DNA from: a virus
Lineage: Duplodnaviria; Heunggongvirae; Uroviricota; Caudoviricetes
Reading direction: 5' to 3' (one strand)
DNA length: 5,390 bases
IMG/VR virus record: IMGVR_UViG_2671180473_000013
A program made the position numbers. Positions within the stretch are counted from its first letter, which is position 1; every line of letters starts with the position of its first letter. Positions 3,001-5,390 of the stretch are shown here, one piece after another.

Positions 3001-5390
3001 CAAAAGGTCGGGTAGCCGCGCTGACAGACAATACGCAGGGGGCAGCAGGTCTTGAGTTATACGAGGTGTATAACAACGGATATCCAACAGCGTATGGAAA
3101 TATCATTCACCTGAAAGGGATGACAGCCGTTGGCGAAGGTGAGTTACTCATCGGCTGGAGTGGTACAAGCGGTGCTCATGCTCCGGCATTTATTCGTTCA
3201 CGACGGGATACGACCGACGCAAACTGGTCGCCGTGGGCGCAGCTTTACACCTCGGCTCATCCTCCTGCAGAGTTTTATCCAGTCGGTGCACCAATCCCGT
3301 GGCCATCAGATACCGTTCCGTCTGGTTATGCCCTGATGCAGGGGCAGACTTTTGACAAATCTGCTTACCCGAAACTTGCAGCCGCTTATCCGTCAGGCGT
3401 GATCCCTGATATGCGTGGCTGGACGATTAAGGGCAAGCCCGCCAGTGGTCGTGCCGTATTGTCTCAGGAACAGGATGGCATTAAATCGCACACCCACAGC
3501 GCCAGCGCATCCAGTACGGATTTGGGGACGAAAACCACATCGTCGTTTGATTACGGCACTAAATCCACGAATAACACCGGGGCGCATACGCACAGTCTGA
3601 GCGGCTCTACAAGTTCAGCTGGGGCCCACCAACATAGTCAGACTGGGCCCAGAACGAATAGCGGGAGTCAACCTACTGGAATGTTTCCGGCAGGGAGTAC
3701 TCAAGTTAGCGGGACTAATCAGGTTGGTATCAGTGGCTCATTAACCAGTGGCACCTCCCAATGGGTAGGTAAATCATCTTCAGAAGGAAACCATACACAC
3801 TCACTGTCCGGCACAGCAGCATCTGCGGGTGCACACGCGCATACTGTCGGTATTGGTGCTCATACGCACTCTGTTGCGATTGGTTCACATGGACACACCA
3901 TCACCGTTAACGCTGCTGGTAACGCGGAAAACACCGTCAAAAACATCGCATTTAACTATATTGTGAGGCTCGCATAATGGCATTCAGAATGAGTGAACAA
4001 GCACGGACCATAAAAATTTATAACCTGCTGGCCGGAACTAATGAATTTATTGGTGAAGGTGACGCATATATTCCGCCTCATACAGGTCTGCCTGCAAACA
4101 GTACCGATATTGCACCGCCAGATATTCCGGCTGGTTTCGTGGCTGTTTTCAACAGTGATGAGTCATCGTGGCATCTCGTTGAAGATCATCGGGGTAAAAC
4201 GGTTTATGACGTGGCTTCCGGCGACGCGTTATTTATTTCTGAACTCGGCTCATTACCGGAAAATGTCACCTGGTTATCCCCGGAAGGGGAGTTTCAGAAG
4301 TGGAACGGCACAGCCTGGGTGAAGGATACGGAAGCAGAAAAACTGTTCCGGATCCGGGAGGCGGAAGAAACAAAAAACAGCCTGATGCAGGTAGCCAGTG
4401 AGCATATAGCGCCGCTTCAGGATGCTGTGGATCTGGAGATCGCAACGGAGAAAGAAACCTTGTTGCTGGAAGCTTGGAAAAAGTATCGGGTGTTGCTGAA
4501 CCGTGTTGATACATCAACTGCACCGGATATTGAATGGCCAGTAGCACCTATAGGGTAAATTCGTAATGATTACCTAAATACGTTATTCTTTTGTTAAAAA
4601 AGTGATTTTGCTATAGGTAGGGAGTATGTTCTTGGATTAAGAATAAAAAATCGCCATGAAAGAGCTTCATGGCGAGTACATAAACGTACAAAATGTGATG
4701 AAAGTAGAGTGGCGTAAGCCACTATATTAAGATATGACAATAGCGAAGAAAAGTAAATAACATTTTATGGACGTTTAATTGTTAATTATAAAAACTAGAG
4801 TGCCCGATATTGTTTATCTTGCTTTAAAATAATGTACTCAAACCAAATTTTTGAGCTAAAAGCTCAAATAATATAAATGCAATAATAATGTTTAATAAGA
4901 CAATTAGCTTGCTTTGTATTTTCATTTCGGAATACTGTTAAGTAACTTTGATGACCCTAACAATAGATCGGAATTTTCTTAGAGTCAATGGTCACTGTTT
5001 TTGCTTGCAAAGCAAATGTTTTGGTGGTTATAAGTCGTCTTAATATAGTCACGCATGCAACTTGTTCCATGCGGAGATTAAAGATTGGAATATAACGCGA
5101 AGATGGAATTAAATTACATTTGCAATAATTAATTTATTATTACTCAATAATTACCGATATTATTATTGTAAATTAATCATTAGAATGCAAAAAGAAATGT
5201 AACGGCAAAATAAGAGGACGATAGCTGAGAAAAAAGCGTGCTTTCCCAATCTGGGGCAAATCACGTCTGAATGACACCTGAAAACAGGTGGTAGCCTCAA
5301 GAAGGCTGGTGATGCTGCCAACTTACTGATTTAGTGTATGATGGTGTTTTTGAGGTGCTCCAGTGGCTTCTGTTTCTATCAGCTGTCCCT

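What the first reader, a model, noticed from the sequence alone, without database searches (positions are those of the whole stretch)
4559..5307. 749-bp AT-rich region with no sizeable ORF at the cargo position downstream of tfa
The region after tfa is where lambdoid prophages commonly carry accessory cargo (effectors, defence genes, toxin-antitoxin loci). Here the composition drops abruptly to AT-rich, there is no ORF of 60 codons or more on either strand, and the region ends in an IS1 insertion. It could be a decayed cargo gene, a regulatory/H-NS-bound island, or the home of a small RNA or small-protein gene; I cannot tell these apart from sequence alone. The IS1 may also have split a larger locus that continues beyond the window.
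Basis: partly seen in the sequence, partly recalled or inferred. Interest (0 to 1): 0.55.

Follow-up and report, generated by a model that had tools for sequence, protein, structure and literature searches.

The report
Hidden YncL-like small-protein gene after tfa
The "empty" AT-rich stretch after the phage tail-fibre assembly gene carries an unannotated 33-codon gene, related to the E. coli stress membrane peptide YncL and found in about 15% of complete E. coli genomes, followed by leftover scars of old phage recombination and an IS1 insertion.

Summary
Window 4559-5307 is 31.5% GC (tail genes 53.8%), has no ORF of 60 codons or more, and abuts IS1 at 5308. The region is a mosaic of three pieces, not empty DNA.

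1. 4559-5136 follows tfa directly in about 15% of complete E. coli genomes and in three isolated lambdoid phages, and is never annotated.
   - It is a compact minus-strand unit: a sigma70-like promoter, a 33-codon ORF (4925->4824), then an ultra-conserved structured 3' element ending in a strong terminator that faces tfa.
   - The ORF is homologous to the small membrane protein YncL: NCBIfam E 1e-5 (below the curated cutoff), 39% identity, z about 10 against shuffles.
   - dN/dS is 0.04-0.09, and the ORF is intact in all 81 copies examined.
2. 5137-5222 is a junction.
3. 5223-5307 is the outer 85 bp of a 213-bp prophage-end module of serU-integrating phages (tI/sib-like terminator plus att arm). 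Here it is a fossil.

IS1 inserted at 5308; an IS1-bearing relative with the same junction lacks about 550 bp there. IS1-free relatives continue with a serU tRNA fragment, 278 bp of chromosomal DNA and a YdeO-like AraC regulator.

Best reading: a moron encoding a YncL-like peptide, plus recombination scars. Expression is untested.

The parts
3977..4558 (+). tfa (tail fibre assembly gene), the left neighbour. Its 3' half always travels with the module that follows.
   Evidence: 193-aa ORF. It is collinear with annotated tail fibre assembly proteins. Its 3' part matches Rfam IS009 at 218 bits. Homology of related loci starts either at the tfa start or in mid-tfa.
4559..5136 (-). 578-bp 'module A': a self-contained minus-strand unit holding the yncL-like gene, inherited as a block directly after tfa.
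   Evidence: Window 4640-4990 is present in 828 of 5426 complete E. coli genomes, with no feature annotated under any listed match. The block boundary at query base 578 is seen. The module also lies in phages ev099, mEp332 and PhiR70_1. In L003 and L060 it is followed by a tfa 3' remnant.
4960..4988 (-). Sigma70-like promoter: TTGACT, 17-bp spacer, TATTGT. The predicted transcription start is near 4952.
   Evidence: Called by the consensus scan at 9 of 12 matches; the scan as a whole is not enriched over shuffles. The segment is 90% identical to the most divergent lineage, where neighbouring spacers are 56-74%.
4824..4925 (-). 33-codon ORF MKIQSKLIVLLNIIIAFILFELLAQKFGLSTLF: a YncL-like single-pass small membrane protein. 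There is no obvious Shine-Dalgarno sequence.
   Evidence: - NCBIfam NF000537 (YncL): E 1.3e-5, 25 bits, curated cutoff 35.
- The two other natural variants also hit only YncL, and 8 shuffled or reversed controls do not.
- BLASTP against K-12 YncL: 11 of 28 identical, ungapped from Met1.
- Local alignment score 60-67 against shuffle mean 20, sd 4; 0 of 20000 shuffles reach it.
- dN/dS 0.04-0.09, with 11 synonymous and 7 non-synonymous changes, binomial p 1.5e-4.
- Intact at 33 aa in all 81 copies examined.
4641..4725 (-). Ultra-conserved structured 3' element. It consists of stem-loop GUGGCUUACGCCAC (4722..4709), a largely unpaired stretch (4708..4676, holding one 4-bp hairpin), the terminator hairpin (4675..4651) and the U-tract (4650..4641). 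It is a candidate 3'UTR-derived sRNA or mRNA-stability element.
   Evidence: - Terminator called by the scan: 11 pairs followed by TTTTTTATTC.
- Fold energy -27.2 kcal/mol, z -5.3, with 0 of 200 shuffles as stable.
- 94% identity to the divergent lineage, against 65% on both flanks.
- Only one-sided, pair-preserving changes occur in the stems.
- Only sub-threshold Rfam matches, to MicC, Aar and Esr41.
5030..5100 (.). Conserved non-coding island about 80-150 bp upstream of the predicted start of the yncL-like transcript. It may be a regulator-binding region.
   Evidence: 86% identity to the divergent lineage, against 56% in the adjacent spacer. The two ORFs that overlap it lose their start codon or reading frame in other lineages.
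5137..5222 (.). 86-bp, 24% GC junction segment, specific to the ev099-like b region.
   Evidence: Homology to L003-type prophages stops at 5136, and homology to serU-type prophage ends starts at 5223. In L060 this segment is replaced by about 1 kb of other cargo.
5223..5307 (-). Outer 85 bp of a 213-bp prophage-end module of serU-integrating lambdoid phages. It holds an interrupted hairpin (5267..5236) followed by a U-run (5235..5230) on the minus strand, which I read as a tI/sib-like terminator, plus two further hairpins. It is a fossil here, cut by IS1.
   Evidence: - Found at 93-100% identity, without the rest of the region, in roughly 500 further genomes of the 1343 with any match.
- In L005, ST131 and APEC O1 it lies about 840 bp from zinT, at the right end of a prophage.
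- In L001 the module (6665-6877) runs into a 62-nt serU 3' fragment followed by 278 bp of K-12-like chromosome.
- The same locus has a lambda-type tI + P arm + core block of the same size at its true attR.
- The fold shows the hairpin plus U6, but the consensus scan did not call it.
5308..5390 (+). IS1, insA-proximal end (GGTGATGCTGCCAACTTA...).
   Evidence: Identical junction in L002, where an IS1A transposase is annotated. The IS1-free sequence continues TGGAATATTC.... L002 lacks L001 6750-7299 next to the IS1, and in L023 homology to L001 resumes at 7493 instead of 7300.

Best explanation
The region is a mosaic made by phage recombination. Only its left 578 bp looks like a working gene.

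**Module A (4559-5136).** This is a 'moron': an independent, AT-rich transcription unit set antisense to the late operon.
- In a lysogen, where late genes are silent, its sigma70-type promoter (about 4988-4960, minus strand) would drive a transcript of about 310 nt.
- The transcript encodes a 33-residue single-pass membrane peptide homologous to YncL and ends at a strong intrinsic terminator 93 bp from the tfa stop codon. That terminator would keep the transcript out of tfa.
- By homology with YncL, the peptide would insert in the inner membrane and partly dissipate membrane potential. This would shift the lysogen's stress physiology or interfere with infecting phages.
- The ultra-conserved 3' element probably stabilises the mRNA or is released as a small RNA.

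**The remainder (5137-5307).** This is a junction plus the outer edge (tI/sib-like terminator) of the attachment-site arm of a serU-integrating phage. It was inherited as a scar and then truncated by IS1. A relative with the same IS1 junction also lost about 550 bp beside the IS1.

**Shown:** homology, purifying selection, the conservation pattern, predicted structure, the terminator, genomic distribution and the origin of each segment.
**Inferred:** transcription, translation, membrane activity, benefit to the phage or host, and the tI/sib role.
For: **The ORF is a YncL homologue under selection.**
- All three main protein variants hit only the YncL model (E 1.3e-5 to 7.5e-5). None of 8 shuffled or reversed controls does.
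- 39% identity to K-12 YncL, ungapped from Met1. Alignment score is z about 10, with 0 of 20000 shuffles reaching it.
- dN/dS is 0.04-0.09, with changes concentrated at codon positions 3 and 1; binomial p 1.5e-4.
- The ORF is intact at 33 aa in 81 of 81 copies from genomes, phages, viral contigs and metagenomes.

**The conservation profile fits a transcription unit.** Identity to the most divergent lineage:

| Segment | Identity |
|---|---|
| Promoter | 90% |
| CDS | 80% |
| 3' element | 94% |
| Upstream island | 86% |
| Spacers | 56-65% |

**Other support.**
- The terminator is called by the scan, and the 3' element folds with z -5.3.
- The module occurs with or without the AraC gene and at several integration sites: bio, ydfJ and sit. 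It also lies in plaque-forming phages.
- YncL biology (PMC12542507): its production caused membrane depolarisation and nucleoid condensation, and its expression rises on heat shock and in minimal medium.
- Scar origin of 5223-5307.
Against: - No expression data exist for this locus.
- The ORF has no recognisable Shine-Dalgarno sequence, whereas K-12 and Citrobacter yncL have AAGGTGG.
- The NCBIfam score is below the curated cutoff (25 against 35 bits).
- Diversity is low: three lineages and four protein variants. The selection test therefore rests on about 24 substitutions.
- The promoter scan is not enriched over shuffles (5 sites found, 4.7 expected).
- Mosaic recombination among lineages (for example L042) could create some of the conservation islands without selection.
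- The tI/sib reading of 5230-5267 rests on analogy only. The fold of 5215-5307 is not exceptional (z -1.4), and the scan did not call the hairpin.
Confidence: 0.68

Rival explanations
1. The main product is a small RNA, not a protein. The ultra-conserved 3' element (4725..4641, minus strand) would be an Hfq-type sRNA, made from its own promoter or cut from the 3' end of the longer transcript, that base-pairs with host or phage mRNAs. On this reading the ORF is secondary, or the transcript is dual-function.
For: - It is the most conserved segment of the whole region: 94% identity against 65% on both flanks.
- Its architecture is typical of enterobacterial sRNAs: stem-loop, largely unpaired stretch, GC-rich terminator and U-tract. 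The fold has z -5.3.
- The only Rfam matches in the region fall here on this strand (MicC E 0.68, Aar, Esr41), though none is significant.
- A precedent exists: prophage 3'UTR-derived sRNAs are known, such as KilS from Rac kilR (PMC8175672).
Against: - No Rfam family reaches significance.
- No compensatory double substitutions occur; only one-sided changes are seen.
- The U-tract is interrupted in two lineages (UUUCUUAUU).
- No conserved promoter lies directly upstream of the element.
- This reading does not explain the strong synonymous bias in the ORF.
- It is compatible with the best explanation rather than exclusive of it.
Confidence: 0.3
2. The region is non-coding regulatory or silenced DNA: a long AT-rich, H-NS-bound upstream region that controls the YdeO-like AraC regulator found further right in IS1-free relatives. 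On this reading the small ORF is a chance frame.
For: - GC is very low, 24-31%.
- In ev099-like phages a 1.5-kb unannotated stretch lies between tfa and the AraC gene.
- ORFs of about 30 codons are common here: nine ORFs of 30 aa or more overlap the 749 bp.
Against: - Module A also occurs in prophages with no AraC gene, next to ydfJ or sitD.
- The stretch between it and the AraC gene is demonstrably composite: an att-arm module, a serU fragment and 278 bp of chromosome. It is not one regulatory region.
- YncL homology and dN/dS of 0.04-0.09 are not expected of a chance frame.
- In this window IS1 separates the region from anything downstream.
Confidence: 0.12
3. The region is a type I toxin-antitoxin locus. 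The hydrophobic 33-aa peptide would be a membrane toxin, and an antisense or nearby sRNA would hold its translation in check and stabilise the prophage.
For: - The peptide has the size and hydrophobicity of type I toxins.
- YncL production depolarises the membrane and lowers viability (PMC12542507).
- The missing Shine-Dalgarno sequence and the conserved RNA structure are reminiscent of tightly controlled toxin mRNAs.
- A weak plus-strand promoter-like site lies at 4734-4763.
Against: - No conserved antisense unit is present. The plus-strand hairpin at about 5005-5021 and the inverted repeat inside the ORF are both lost in the divergent lineage.
- The papers read here treat YncL as a small stress-response membrane protein, not as part of a toxin-antitoxin pair (PMC12542507).
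- The peptide matches no other NCBIfam model. PADLOC was not searched.
Confidence: 0.08
4. The region is a decayed remnant of a larger cargo gene (effector, defence or toxin gene) that has lost its reading frame.
For: It is an AT-rich cargo position, with an IS1 and deletions nearby.
Against: - blastn (word size 11) finds only the same unannotated DNA in 4 phage records and nothing in plasmids.
- None of the other ORFs or frames matches Pfam, PHROGs or NCBIfam.
- 81 copies across three lineages keep the same small-gene architecture, not scattered decay.
- A full six-frame protein search of the region was not run.
Confidence: 0.04

Closest known systems
YncL (E. coli K-12 b4598), a 31-aa stress-response small inner-membrane protein; NCBIfam NF000537
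   Same: - Length is the same to within 2 residues.
- The alignment is ungapped from Met1, with 11 of 28 identical residues, including N12, A16, L19-F20 and F27-G28.
- The layout matches: a short basic N-terminus, one hydrophobic helix and a K/R-F-G motif.
- YncL is the only family hit.
   Different: - The score is 22-25 bits, below the 35-bit equivalog cutoff.
- The gene lies in a lambdoid prophage after tfa, not in the chromosomal patD-ortT interval.
- There is no Shine-Dalgarno sequence, and the promoter and 3' region are unrelated.
- The helix carries an acidic or basic residue at position 21 (E or K).
- The protein-level patterns used here found it only in E. coli genomes and phage or metagenome contigs, whereas yncL proper is also in Citrobacter.
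Phage 'morons' of lambdoid phages, such as lambda lom and bor, HK97 gp15 (a superinfection-exclusion membrane protein) and phi80/N15 cor. These examples come from my own knowledge and were not checked here.
   Same: It is an extra transcription unit with its own promoter and terminator and deviant base composition. It is inserted between or after tail genes, is presumably expressed from the prophage, and encodes a small membrane protein.
   Different: It is much smaller (33 aa, one helix). It is oriented antisense to the late operon. No phenotype is known, and expression in the lysogen has not been demonstrated.
YnaM, a 37-aa small protein gene at the right end of the K-12 Rac prophage
   Same: It occupies the equivalent place: a minus-strand small hydrophobic ORF between the tail-fibre genes and attR.
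   Different: There is no evident sequence similarity (not formally tested), and the neighbours differ (pinR, ynaE).
Lambda tI/sib retroregulator plus attP P arm
   Same: It is a block of about 215 bp. Its far end carries a minus-strand hairpin plus U-run, followed by the arm and then the core. L001 has a lambda-type copy of this block at its true attR (86% identical to lambda 27528-27742) and the serU-type block 2.4 kb to the left.
   Different: - There is no sequence similarity to lambda.
- The core lies in a serU tRNA 3' fragment.
- In this window only the outer 85 bp survive, and the block is not at a prophage end.
- Terminator and RNase III function are inferred only.
3'UTR-derived, Hfq-dependent sRNAs of enterobacteria and their prophages, such as KilS from Rac kilR (PMC8175672)
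   Same: The conserved structured 3' end of a short mRNA ends in an intrinsic terminator and is more conserved than the coding part.
   Different: No transcript, Hfq binding or target is known, and no Rfam family matches.

Membership tests
YncL family (NCBIfam NF000537, equivalog) | Score at or above the curated cutoff of the family model (35 bits) | tested here: not met
   Scores of 25.0, 23.5 and 22.5 bits for the three variants tested. It is therefore a homologue or paralogue, not an equivalog.
YncL family (NCBIfam NF000537, equivalog) | Sequence similarity beyond what a hydrophobic composition gives | tested here: met
   Alignment score 60-67 against shuffle mean 20, sd 4, with 0 of 20000 shuffles reaching it. 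None of 8 shuffled or reversed peptides hits the model. BLASTP gives 39% identity over 28 aa.
YncL family (NCBIfam NF000537, equivalog) | About 31 aa with a single hydrophobic helix and a short basic N-terminus | tested here: met
   33 aa: MKIQSK, then LIVLLNIIIAFILFELLA, then QKFGLSTLF. This is read directly from the sequence and compared with E. coli and Citrobacter YncL.
YncL family (NCBIfam NF000537, equivalog) | Chromosomal locus between patD and ortT | tested here: not met
   K-12 yncL lies between patD and ortT. This gene lies after tfa in lambdoid prophages and phages.
YncL family (NCBIfam NF000537, equivalog) | The protein is made, sits in the inner membrane and depolarises it | not testable with these tools
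   Shown for K-12 YncL in PMC12542507. No data exist for this peptide.
Phage moron (independent accessory transcription unit) | Own promoter and own terminator flanking the gene | tested here: inconclusive
   The terminator is clear: 11-bp stem plus T-tract. The promoter is a 9-of-12 consensus match that is conserved across lineages, but promoter-like sites are not enriched over shuffles and no transcription start data exist.
Phage moron (independent accessory transcription unit) | Deviant base composition, and presence or absence among otherwise related phages | tested here: met
   GC is 30% against 54%. The module is present in 828 of 5426 genomes. It is absent from lambda and from the K-12 Rac prophage, which carry other genes after tfa.
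Phage moron (independent accessory transcription unit) | Expressed from the repressed prophage | not testable with these tools
   Needs RNA-seq of a lysogen.
Hfq-type or 3'UTR-derived sRNA | Match to a described RNA family | tested here: not met
   Nothing at E of 1 or below in the whole-window scan. The focused scan gives only MicC at E 0.68, with Aar and Esr41 above E 2, all far below gathering scores.
Hfq-type or 3'UTR-derived sRNA | Stable conserved structure ending in an intrinsic terminator | tested here: met
   z -5.3, 94% conserved, terminator called. Covariation is limited to one-sided changes.
Type I toxin-antitoxin | Conserved antisense or adjacent antitoxin RNA gene overlapping the toxin mRNA | tested here: not met
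   Candidate plus-strand hairpins and the intragenic inverted repeat are not conserved in the divergent lineage.
Attachment-site arm with tI/sib-type terminator (lambda paradigm) | Lies directly next to the crossover core at a prophage end | tested here: met
   This holds for the full module in relatives. L001 6665-6877 runs into a serU 3' fragment followed by chromosomal DNA. The module lies at prophage right ends near zinT in L005, ST131 and APEC O1. In this window only the outer 85 bp remain.
Attachment-site arm with tI/sib-type terminator (lambda paradigm) | Leftward-strand hairpin plus U-run at the far edge of the arm that ends int transcripts | tested here: inconclusive
   An interrupted hairpin plus U6 is predicted at the position equivalent to lambda tI. 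However, the scan did not call it and the fold has z -1.4.
IS1 | Terminal inverted repeat and insA start | tested here: met
   5308-5390 is identical to the end of the annotated IS1A copy in L002.

The most novel reading that the evidence does not exclude
Module A is a widespread, never-annotated lysogenic-conversion unit with two products from one transcript of about 310 nt. The first is a YncL-like peptide that tunes membrane potential, giving phage exclusion or a dormancy/persistence benefit. The second is an ultra-conserved 3'-derived sRNA that reprogrammes host mRNAs. That would make it a compact dual-function moron present in roughly one in seven E. coli strains.
Probability: 0.12. Interest if true: 0.7.

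Novelty: new member of a known kind. Interest (0 to 1): 0.4.

Why it matters
Small membrane proteins such as YncL and YohP are only now being given functions: sublethal depolarisation, nucleoid condensation and metabolic silencing (PMC12542507). Three things would follow from a phage-borne YncL relative:
- It would show that temperate phages spread this kind of peptide.
- It would give an easy genetic handle on its role, because the lysogen can be compared with a deletion in phages that grow on K-12.
- It would add a gene to about 15% of complete E. coli genomes in which annotation pipelines currently report nothing.

The region is also a clear worked example of how a prophage 'cargo' zone is assembled. 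It combines a moron, a fossil attachment-site arm with a tRNA fragment and captured chromosomal DNA, and an IS1 insertion with deletions beside it.

Tried and rejected
- **Known RNA families.** The whole-window scan and a focused Rfam scan found nothing significant inside 4559-5307. The MicC-like alignment (E 0.68) needs a 9-nt insertion in the seed, and that part is poorly conserved, so I treat it as chance.
- **Other ORFs (48, 52, 37, 35 and 31 aa).** None has a family hit. Their start codon or frame is lost in the L009 and L003 lineages, or they run through the terminator or into IS1.
- **Plasmid and protein searches.** The plasmid search found no match. tblastn of the peptide against phages also found no match, even though four phage records encode it; the low-complexity filter probably masked it, so the result is uninformative.
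- **Exhaustive HMMER search of 1.84 billion representatives.** It found only the peptide itself and one frameshifted copy, so no wider family is visible that way.
- **Degenerate-pattern scans of viral contigs, genomes and metagenomes.** These gave no new lineages.
- **Literature string searches.** Searches for the peptide and for DNA motifs gave no hits.
- **tRNA scan.** It found no intact tRNA in the IS1-free locus; the serU piece is only a 62-nt 3' fragment.
- **RNA-duplex target scan.** A scan for targets of the conserved 3' stretch timed out and was dropped.
- **The idea that the 1.5 kb is one regulatory region for the AraC gene.** Rejected because of its composite origin.
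Full report
**Observation**

The window is the right arm of a lambdoid prophage.
- It runs from the end of J (1-336) through lom (407-889), stf (about 988-3977, interrupted by 70 Ns) and tfa (3977-4558), then the region in question, then IS1 from 5308.
- GC falls from 53.8% (1-4558) to 31.5% (4559-5307), with 24% in 5137-5222.
- No start-to-stop ORF reaches 60 codons. The longest are 52 aa (starting inside IS1) and 48 aa.
- The lack of a long ORF is not in itself remarkable: 34% of shuffles of the region do as 'badly'.
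- The IS1 junction is identical to that of strain 104 (L002), where an IS1A transposase is annotated.

**Where else the DNA occurs**

- Parts of the 749 bp are found in 1343 of 5426 complete E. coli genomes, always on chromosomes, and no gene inside it is annotated under any listed match.
- Three blocks separate cleanly.
  - The first 578 bp (4559-5136) form one block. Window 4640-4990 is found in 828 genomes, 816 of them full length, and in every locus examined the block follows tfa directly.
  - The last 85 bp (5223-5307) occur without the rest of the region in roughly 500 further genomes, near the right ends of various lambdoid prophages.
  - The 86 bp between them are specific to one lineage.
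- The whole 749 bp is also present at 98.5-99.2% identity in three isolated phages: ev099 (Radostvirus), mEp332 and PhiR70_1. It is therefore carried by viable phages.
- Nothing similar is found in plasmids.

**What lies beyond the IS1**

- In IS1-free relatives (L001 and the three phages) tfa is followed by about 1.5 kb without a credible annotated gene. Next come a 247-aa AraC-family regulator, IS2/IS3 remnants and the lambda-type attachment site with int and xis.
- The regulator aligns end to end with the YdeO model (149 bits, below cutoff) and with GadX.
- In L002, which has the same IS1 junction as the window, the IS1 is accompanied by loss of L001 6750-7299 (550 bp).
- Many viral contigs end their homology at the same left junction. 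In L023 homology to L001 resumes at 7493 instead of 7300. This is the pattern expected from one ancestral IS1 insertion followed by adjacent deletions.

**The small gene**

- Among the small ORFs, only the 33-codon minus-strand ORF 4925..4824 (MKIQSKLIVLLNIIIAFILFELLAQKFGLSTLF) hits a family: NCBIfam NF000537, the stress-response membrane protein YncL. The hit has E 1.3e-5 at 25 bits, and the curated cutoff is 35 bits.
- BLASTP against K-12 YncL gives 11 of 28 identities and 18 of 28 positives, ungapped from Met1.
- Both peptides are hydrophobic, so I controlled for composition.
  - The local alignment score is 60-67, against a shuffle mean of 20 (sd 4). None of 20000 shuffles reaches it.
  - The two other natural variants again hit only YncL, while 8 shuffled or reversed peptides do not.
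- A degenerate pattern built from residues shared by the two families retrieved authentic yncL in E. coli and eleven Citrobacter genomes. The Citrobacter sequences are slightly closer to the phage peptide (K6, I13).
- The peptide is not an equivalog of YncL. It scores below cutoff, sits at a different locus (K-12 yncL lies between patD and ortT), lacks the AAGGTGG ribosome-binding site, and has unrelated flanks.

**Evidence that the gene is constrained**

- 81 copies were collected from genomes, phages, IMG/VR contigs and metagenomes. They fall into three lineages and four protein variants, and every copy is an intact 33-codon ORF.
- Between the window lineage and the most divergent lineage (L009) there are 11 synonymous and 7 non-synonymous differences on 19.7 and 79.3 sites. 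That gives dN/dS 0.09 and binomial p 1.5e-4. Against L010 there are 5 synonymous and 1 non-synonymous.
- The conservation profile against L009 looks like a transcription unit:

| Segment | Identity to L009 |
|---|---|
| Upstream island (5030-5100) | 86% |
| Spacer | 56% |
| Promoter TTGACT-17-TATTGT (4988..4960) | 90% |
| 5' UTR | 74% |
| CDS | 80% |
| Variable 3' stretch | 65% |
| 3' element with terminator (4725..4641) | 94% |
| Terminator-to-tfa spacer | 65% |

- The terminator (11-bp stem, then TTTTTTATTC) is called by the consensus scan. The 105-nt 3' end folds with z -5.3.
- Stem changes between lineages are one-sided and preserve pairing. There are no double compensatory changes.
- The other ORFs lose their start codon or frame in other lineages.

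**Caveats on the gene**

- There is no expression evidence.
- The ORF lacks a Shine-Dalgarno sequence.
- The promoter scan is not enriched over shuffles.
- The selection test rests on few substitutions.
- Lineage mosaics exist (L042), so some conservation islands could be recombination tracts.
- The exact peptide has been called as a gene on only two metagenome contigs and carries no name.
- An exhaustive HMMER search of 1.84 billion representatives finds only the peptide itself and one frameshifted copy.
- Pfam and PHROGs have nothing, and literature string searches find nothing.

**Likely mechanism**

- The architecture is that of a moron: an AT-rich, self-contained unit antisense to the late operon. 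Its terminator faces tfa, so it would not transcribe into the tail genes.
- By homology, the product would be a single-pass inner-membrane peptide.
- K-12 YncL is up-regulated on heat shock and in minimal medium. When produced, it causes sublethal membrane depolarisation and nucleoid condensation (PMC12542507). It is also an RseP substrate in vivo (PMC10470546).
- My inference is that the phage copy alters the lysogen's membrane energetics, to the benefit of stress survival or exclusion of other phages.
- The 3' element may stabilise the mRNA or yield an sRNA. This rival, or complement, is not excluded.
- A type I toxin-antitoxin reading lacks a conserved antisense partner.
- A pure 'regulatory desert for the AraC gene' reading fails for two reasons. 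The module also occurs without that gene, and the intervening DNA is composite.

**The right-hand 170 bp**

- In L001 the 85-bp block continues as a 213-bp module (6665-6877). This module runs into a 62-nt 3' fragment of tRNA-Ser serU, followed by 278 bp that are 97% identical to the K-12 chromosome downstream of serU.
- In L005, an ST131 strain and APEC O1, the same module sits about 840 bp from zinT, at the right end of a prophage. In L005 its flank matches the K-12 serU-yodB interval, as expected for a prophage in serU.
- The module is therefore the att-proximal end of serU-integrating phages.
- Its outer edge, the part kept in the window, carries on the minus strand an interrupted hairpin (5267..5236) and a U-run (5235..5230).
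- Lambda has its tI/sib terminator in the equivalent place. L001 itself has a lambda-type block (86% identical to lambda 27528-27742) at its true attR.
- I read 5223-5307 as a fossil tI/sib-like element plus arm edge, by analogy only.
- In O157 the module is likewise internal, 140 bp to the left of the Rac-type arm. Such fossils are therefore common.

**Comparison and verdict**

- The region is ordinary in being mosaic phage b-region DNA.
- It is not ordinary in hiding a conserved, widespread, unannotated YncL-like gene with an unusually conserved 3' RNA element.
- That makes it a new member of known kinds: small stress membrane proteins, and phage morons.
- Confidence that the ORF is a real, selected coding gene is about 0.7. 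Confidence in the proposed physiological role is much lower.
- Interest is moderate (0.4). It would rise if the dual peptide-plus-sRNA reading, or a phage-exclusion phenotype, were shown.

Noticed in passing
window 4320-4518 (+), inside tfa: Full-length match to Rfam IS009, a candidate sRNA family, at 218 bits against a gathering score of 117. It lies entirely within the 3' half of the tfa coding sequence, so this 'RNA family' may simply be the conserved tfa 3' end. That same segment always accompanies module A and recurs as a remnant on its far side in some lineages.
   Followed up: partly
window about 878-889 (lom): lom carries an 83-bp deletion between two CTGGCG repeats, relative to L001 1831-1913. 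The deletion shifts the frame and ends the ORF at 889 (160 aa instead of 199), so lom is a pseudogene here.
   Followed up: yes
window 2584-2653 and 2383-2582 (stf): A run of 70 Ns (an assembly gap) lies inside the side tail fibre gene, next to near-identical repeats of about 68 bp (2401-2469 and 2515-2582). The gap is probably a collapsed repeat, and the stf reading frame across it is unknown.
   Followed up: no
L001 6860-7199 (the same in phages ev099, mEp332 and PhiR70_1): Viable phages that carry a lambda-type attachment site also carry, inside their b region, a 62-nt serU tRNA 3' fragment plus 278 bp of E. coli chromosome from downstream of serU (97% identical to K-12). This looks like a fossil of an imprecise excision or recombination with a serU-site prophage.
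   Followed up: partly
L002 6750-7517 compared with L023 about 10848-11619: The same IS1 left junction occurs in many genomes and viral contigs, but homology to L001 resumes at different points on the right (7300 in L002, 7493 in L023). This suggests successive IS1-mediated adjacent deletions. In L002 the IS1 ends 206 bp upstream of the AraC regulator gene and could affect its expression.
   Followed up: partly
L001 7506-8249 (+), beyond the window: The b-region regulator is YdeO/GadX-like: it aligns end to end with the YdeO model (E 2e-43, below cutoff). A phage-borne relative of acid-resistance regulators lies in phages that plate on K-12. From memory, it is comparable to the prophage-encoded PatE and Psr regulators of O157.
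   Followed up: partly
L003 5592-5687 and 5820-6017; L060 9291-9762: In the ydfJ-site (Qin-type) lineage, module A is followed by a tfa C-terminal remnant and then a conserved 65-aa minus-strand ORF (WP_001421370.1) with no family hit. Module A is thus bracketed by tfa 3' ends, which suggests that tfa 3' homology is the recombination handle.
   Followed up: partly
L001 6775-6870 (deleted in the IS1-bearing relative L002): TTGATTTTTCG occurs twice as a direct repeat, about 60 bp apart, between the hairpin block and the serU fragment. These are candidate arm-type integrase binding sites of the serU-type attachment site.
   Followed up: no
window 4637-4764 (-): Sub-threshold Rfam matches to the enterobacterial sRNAs MicC (22.8 bits, E 0.68), Aar and Esr41 all fall on the conserved 3' element. 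They are probably driven by the shared stem-loop-plus-terminator layout.
   Followed up: partly
L076 3446-3544 (+), IMG/VR contig 2225789004_000194: An unrelated AT-rich viral contig encodes MKKAITLILMNIISALFLFFLIIQNFGFWGHE, which fits the relaxed YncL-like residue pattern (L-x-N-I-I-x-A-x-x-L-F-x-L-I-...-F-G). It has no NCBIfam hit and may be chance or a distant analogue.
   Followed up: partly
L074 6294-6407 (-), K-12 Rac prophage: K-12 Rac carries the small-protein gene ynaM (37 aa, hydrophobic) in the same zone between tfa/pinR and attR. Small membrane-peptide genes may be a recurrent feature of this cargo position.
   Followed up: no
L004 3834-4001 and L005 3885-3956: A short ORF directly to the left of the 85-bp block in O157 and other strains is annotated 'capsid protein' (55 aa). 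That is an implausible name for this location and is probably an annotation artefact.
   Followed up: no
P0018: The protein collection holds a 43-aa variant of the peptide that is identical over the first 26 residues and then frameshifted. It comes either from an indel in the A/T run AAAAATTTGG or from a sequencing error. It was the only disrupted copy seen.
   Followed up: no
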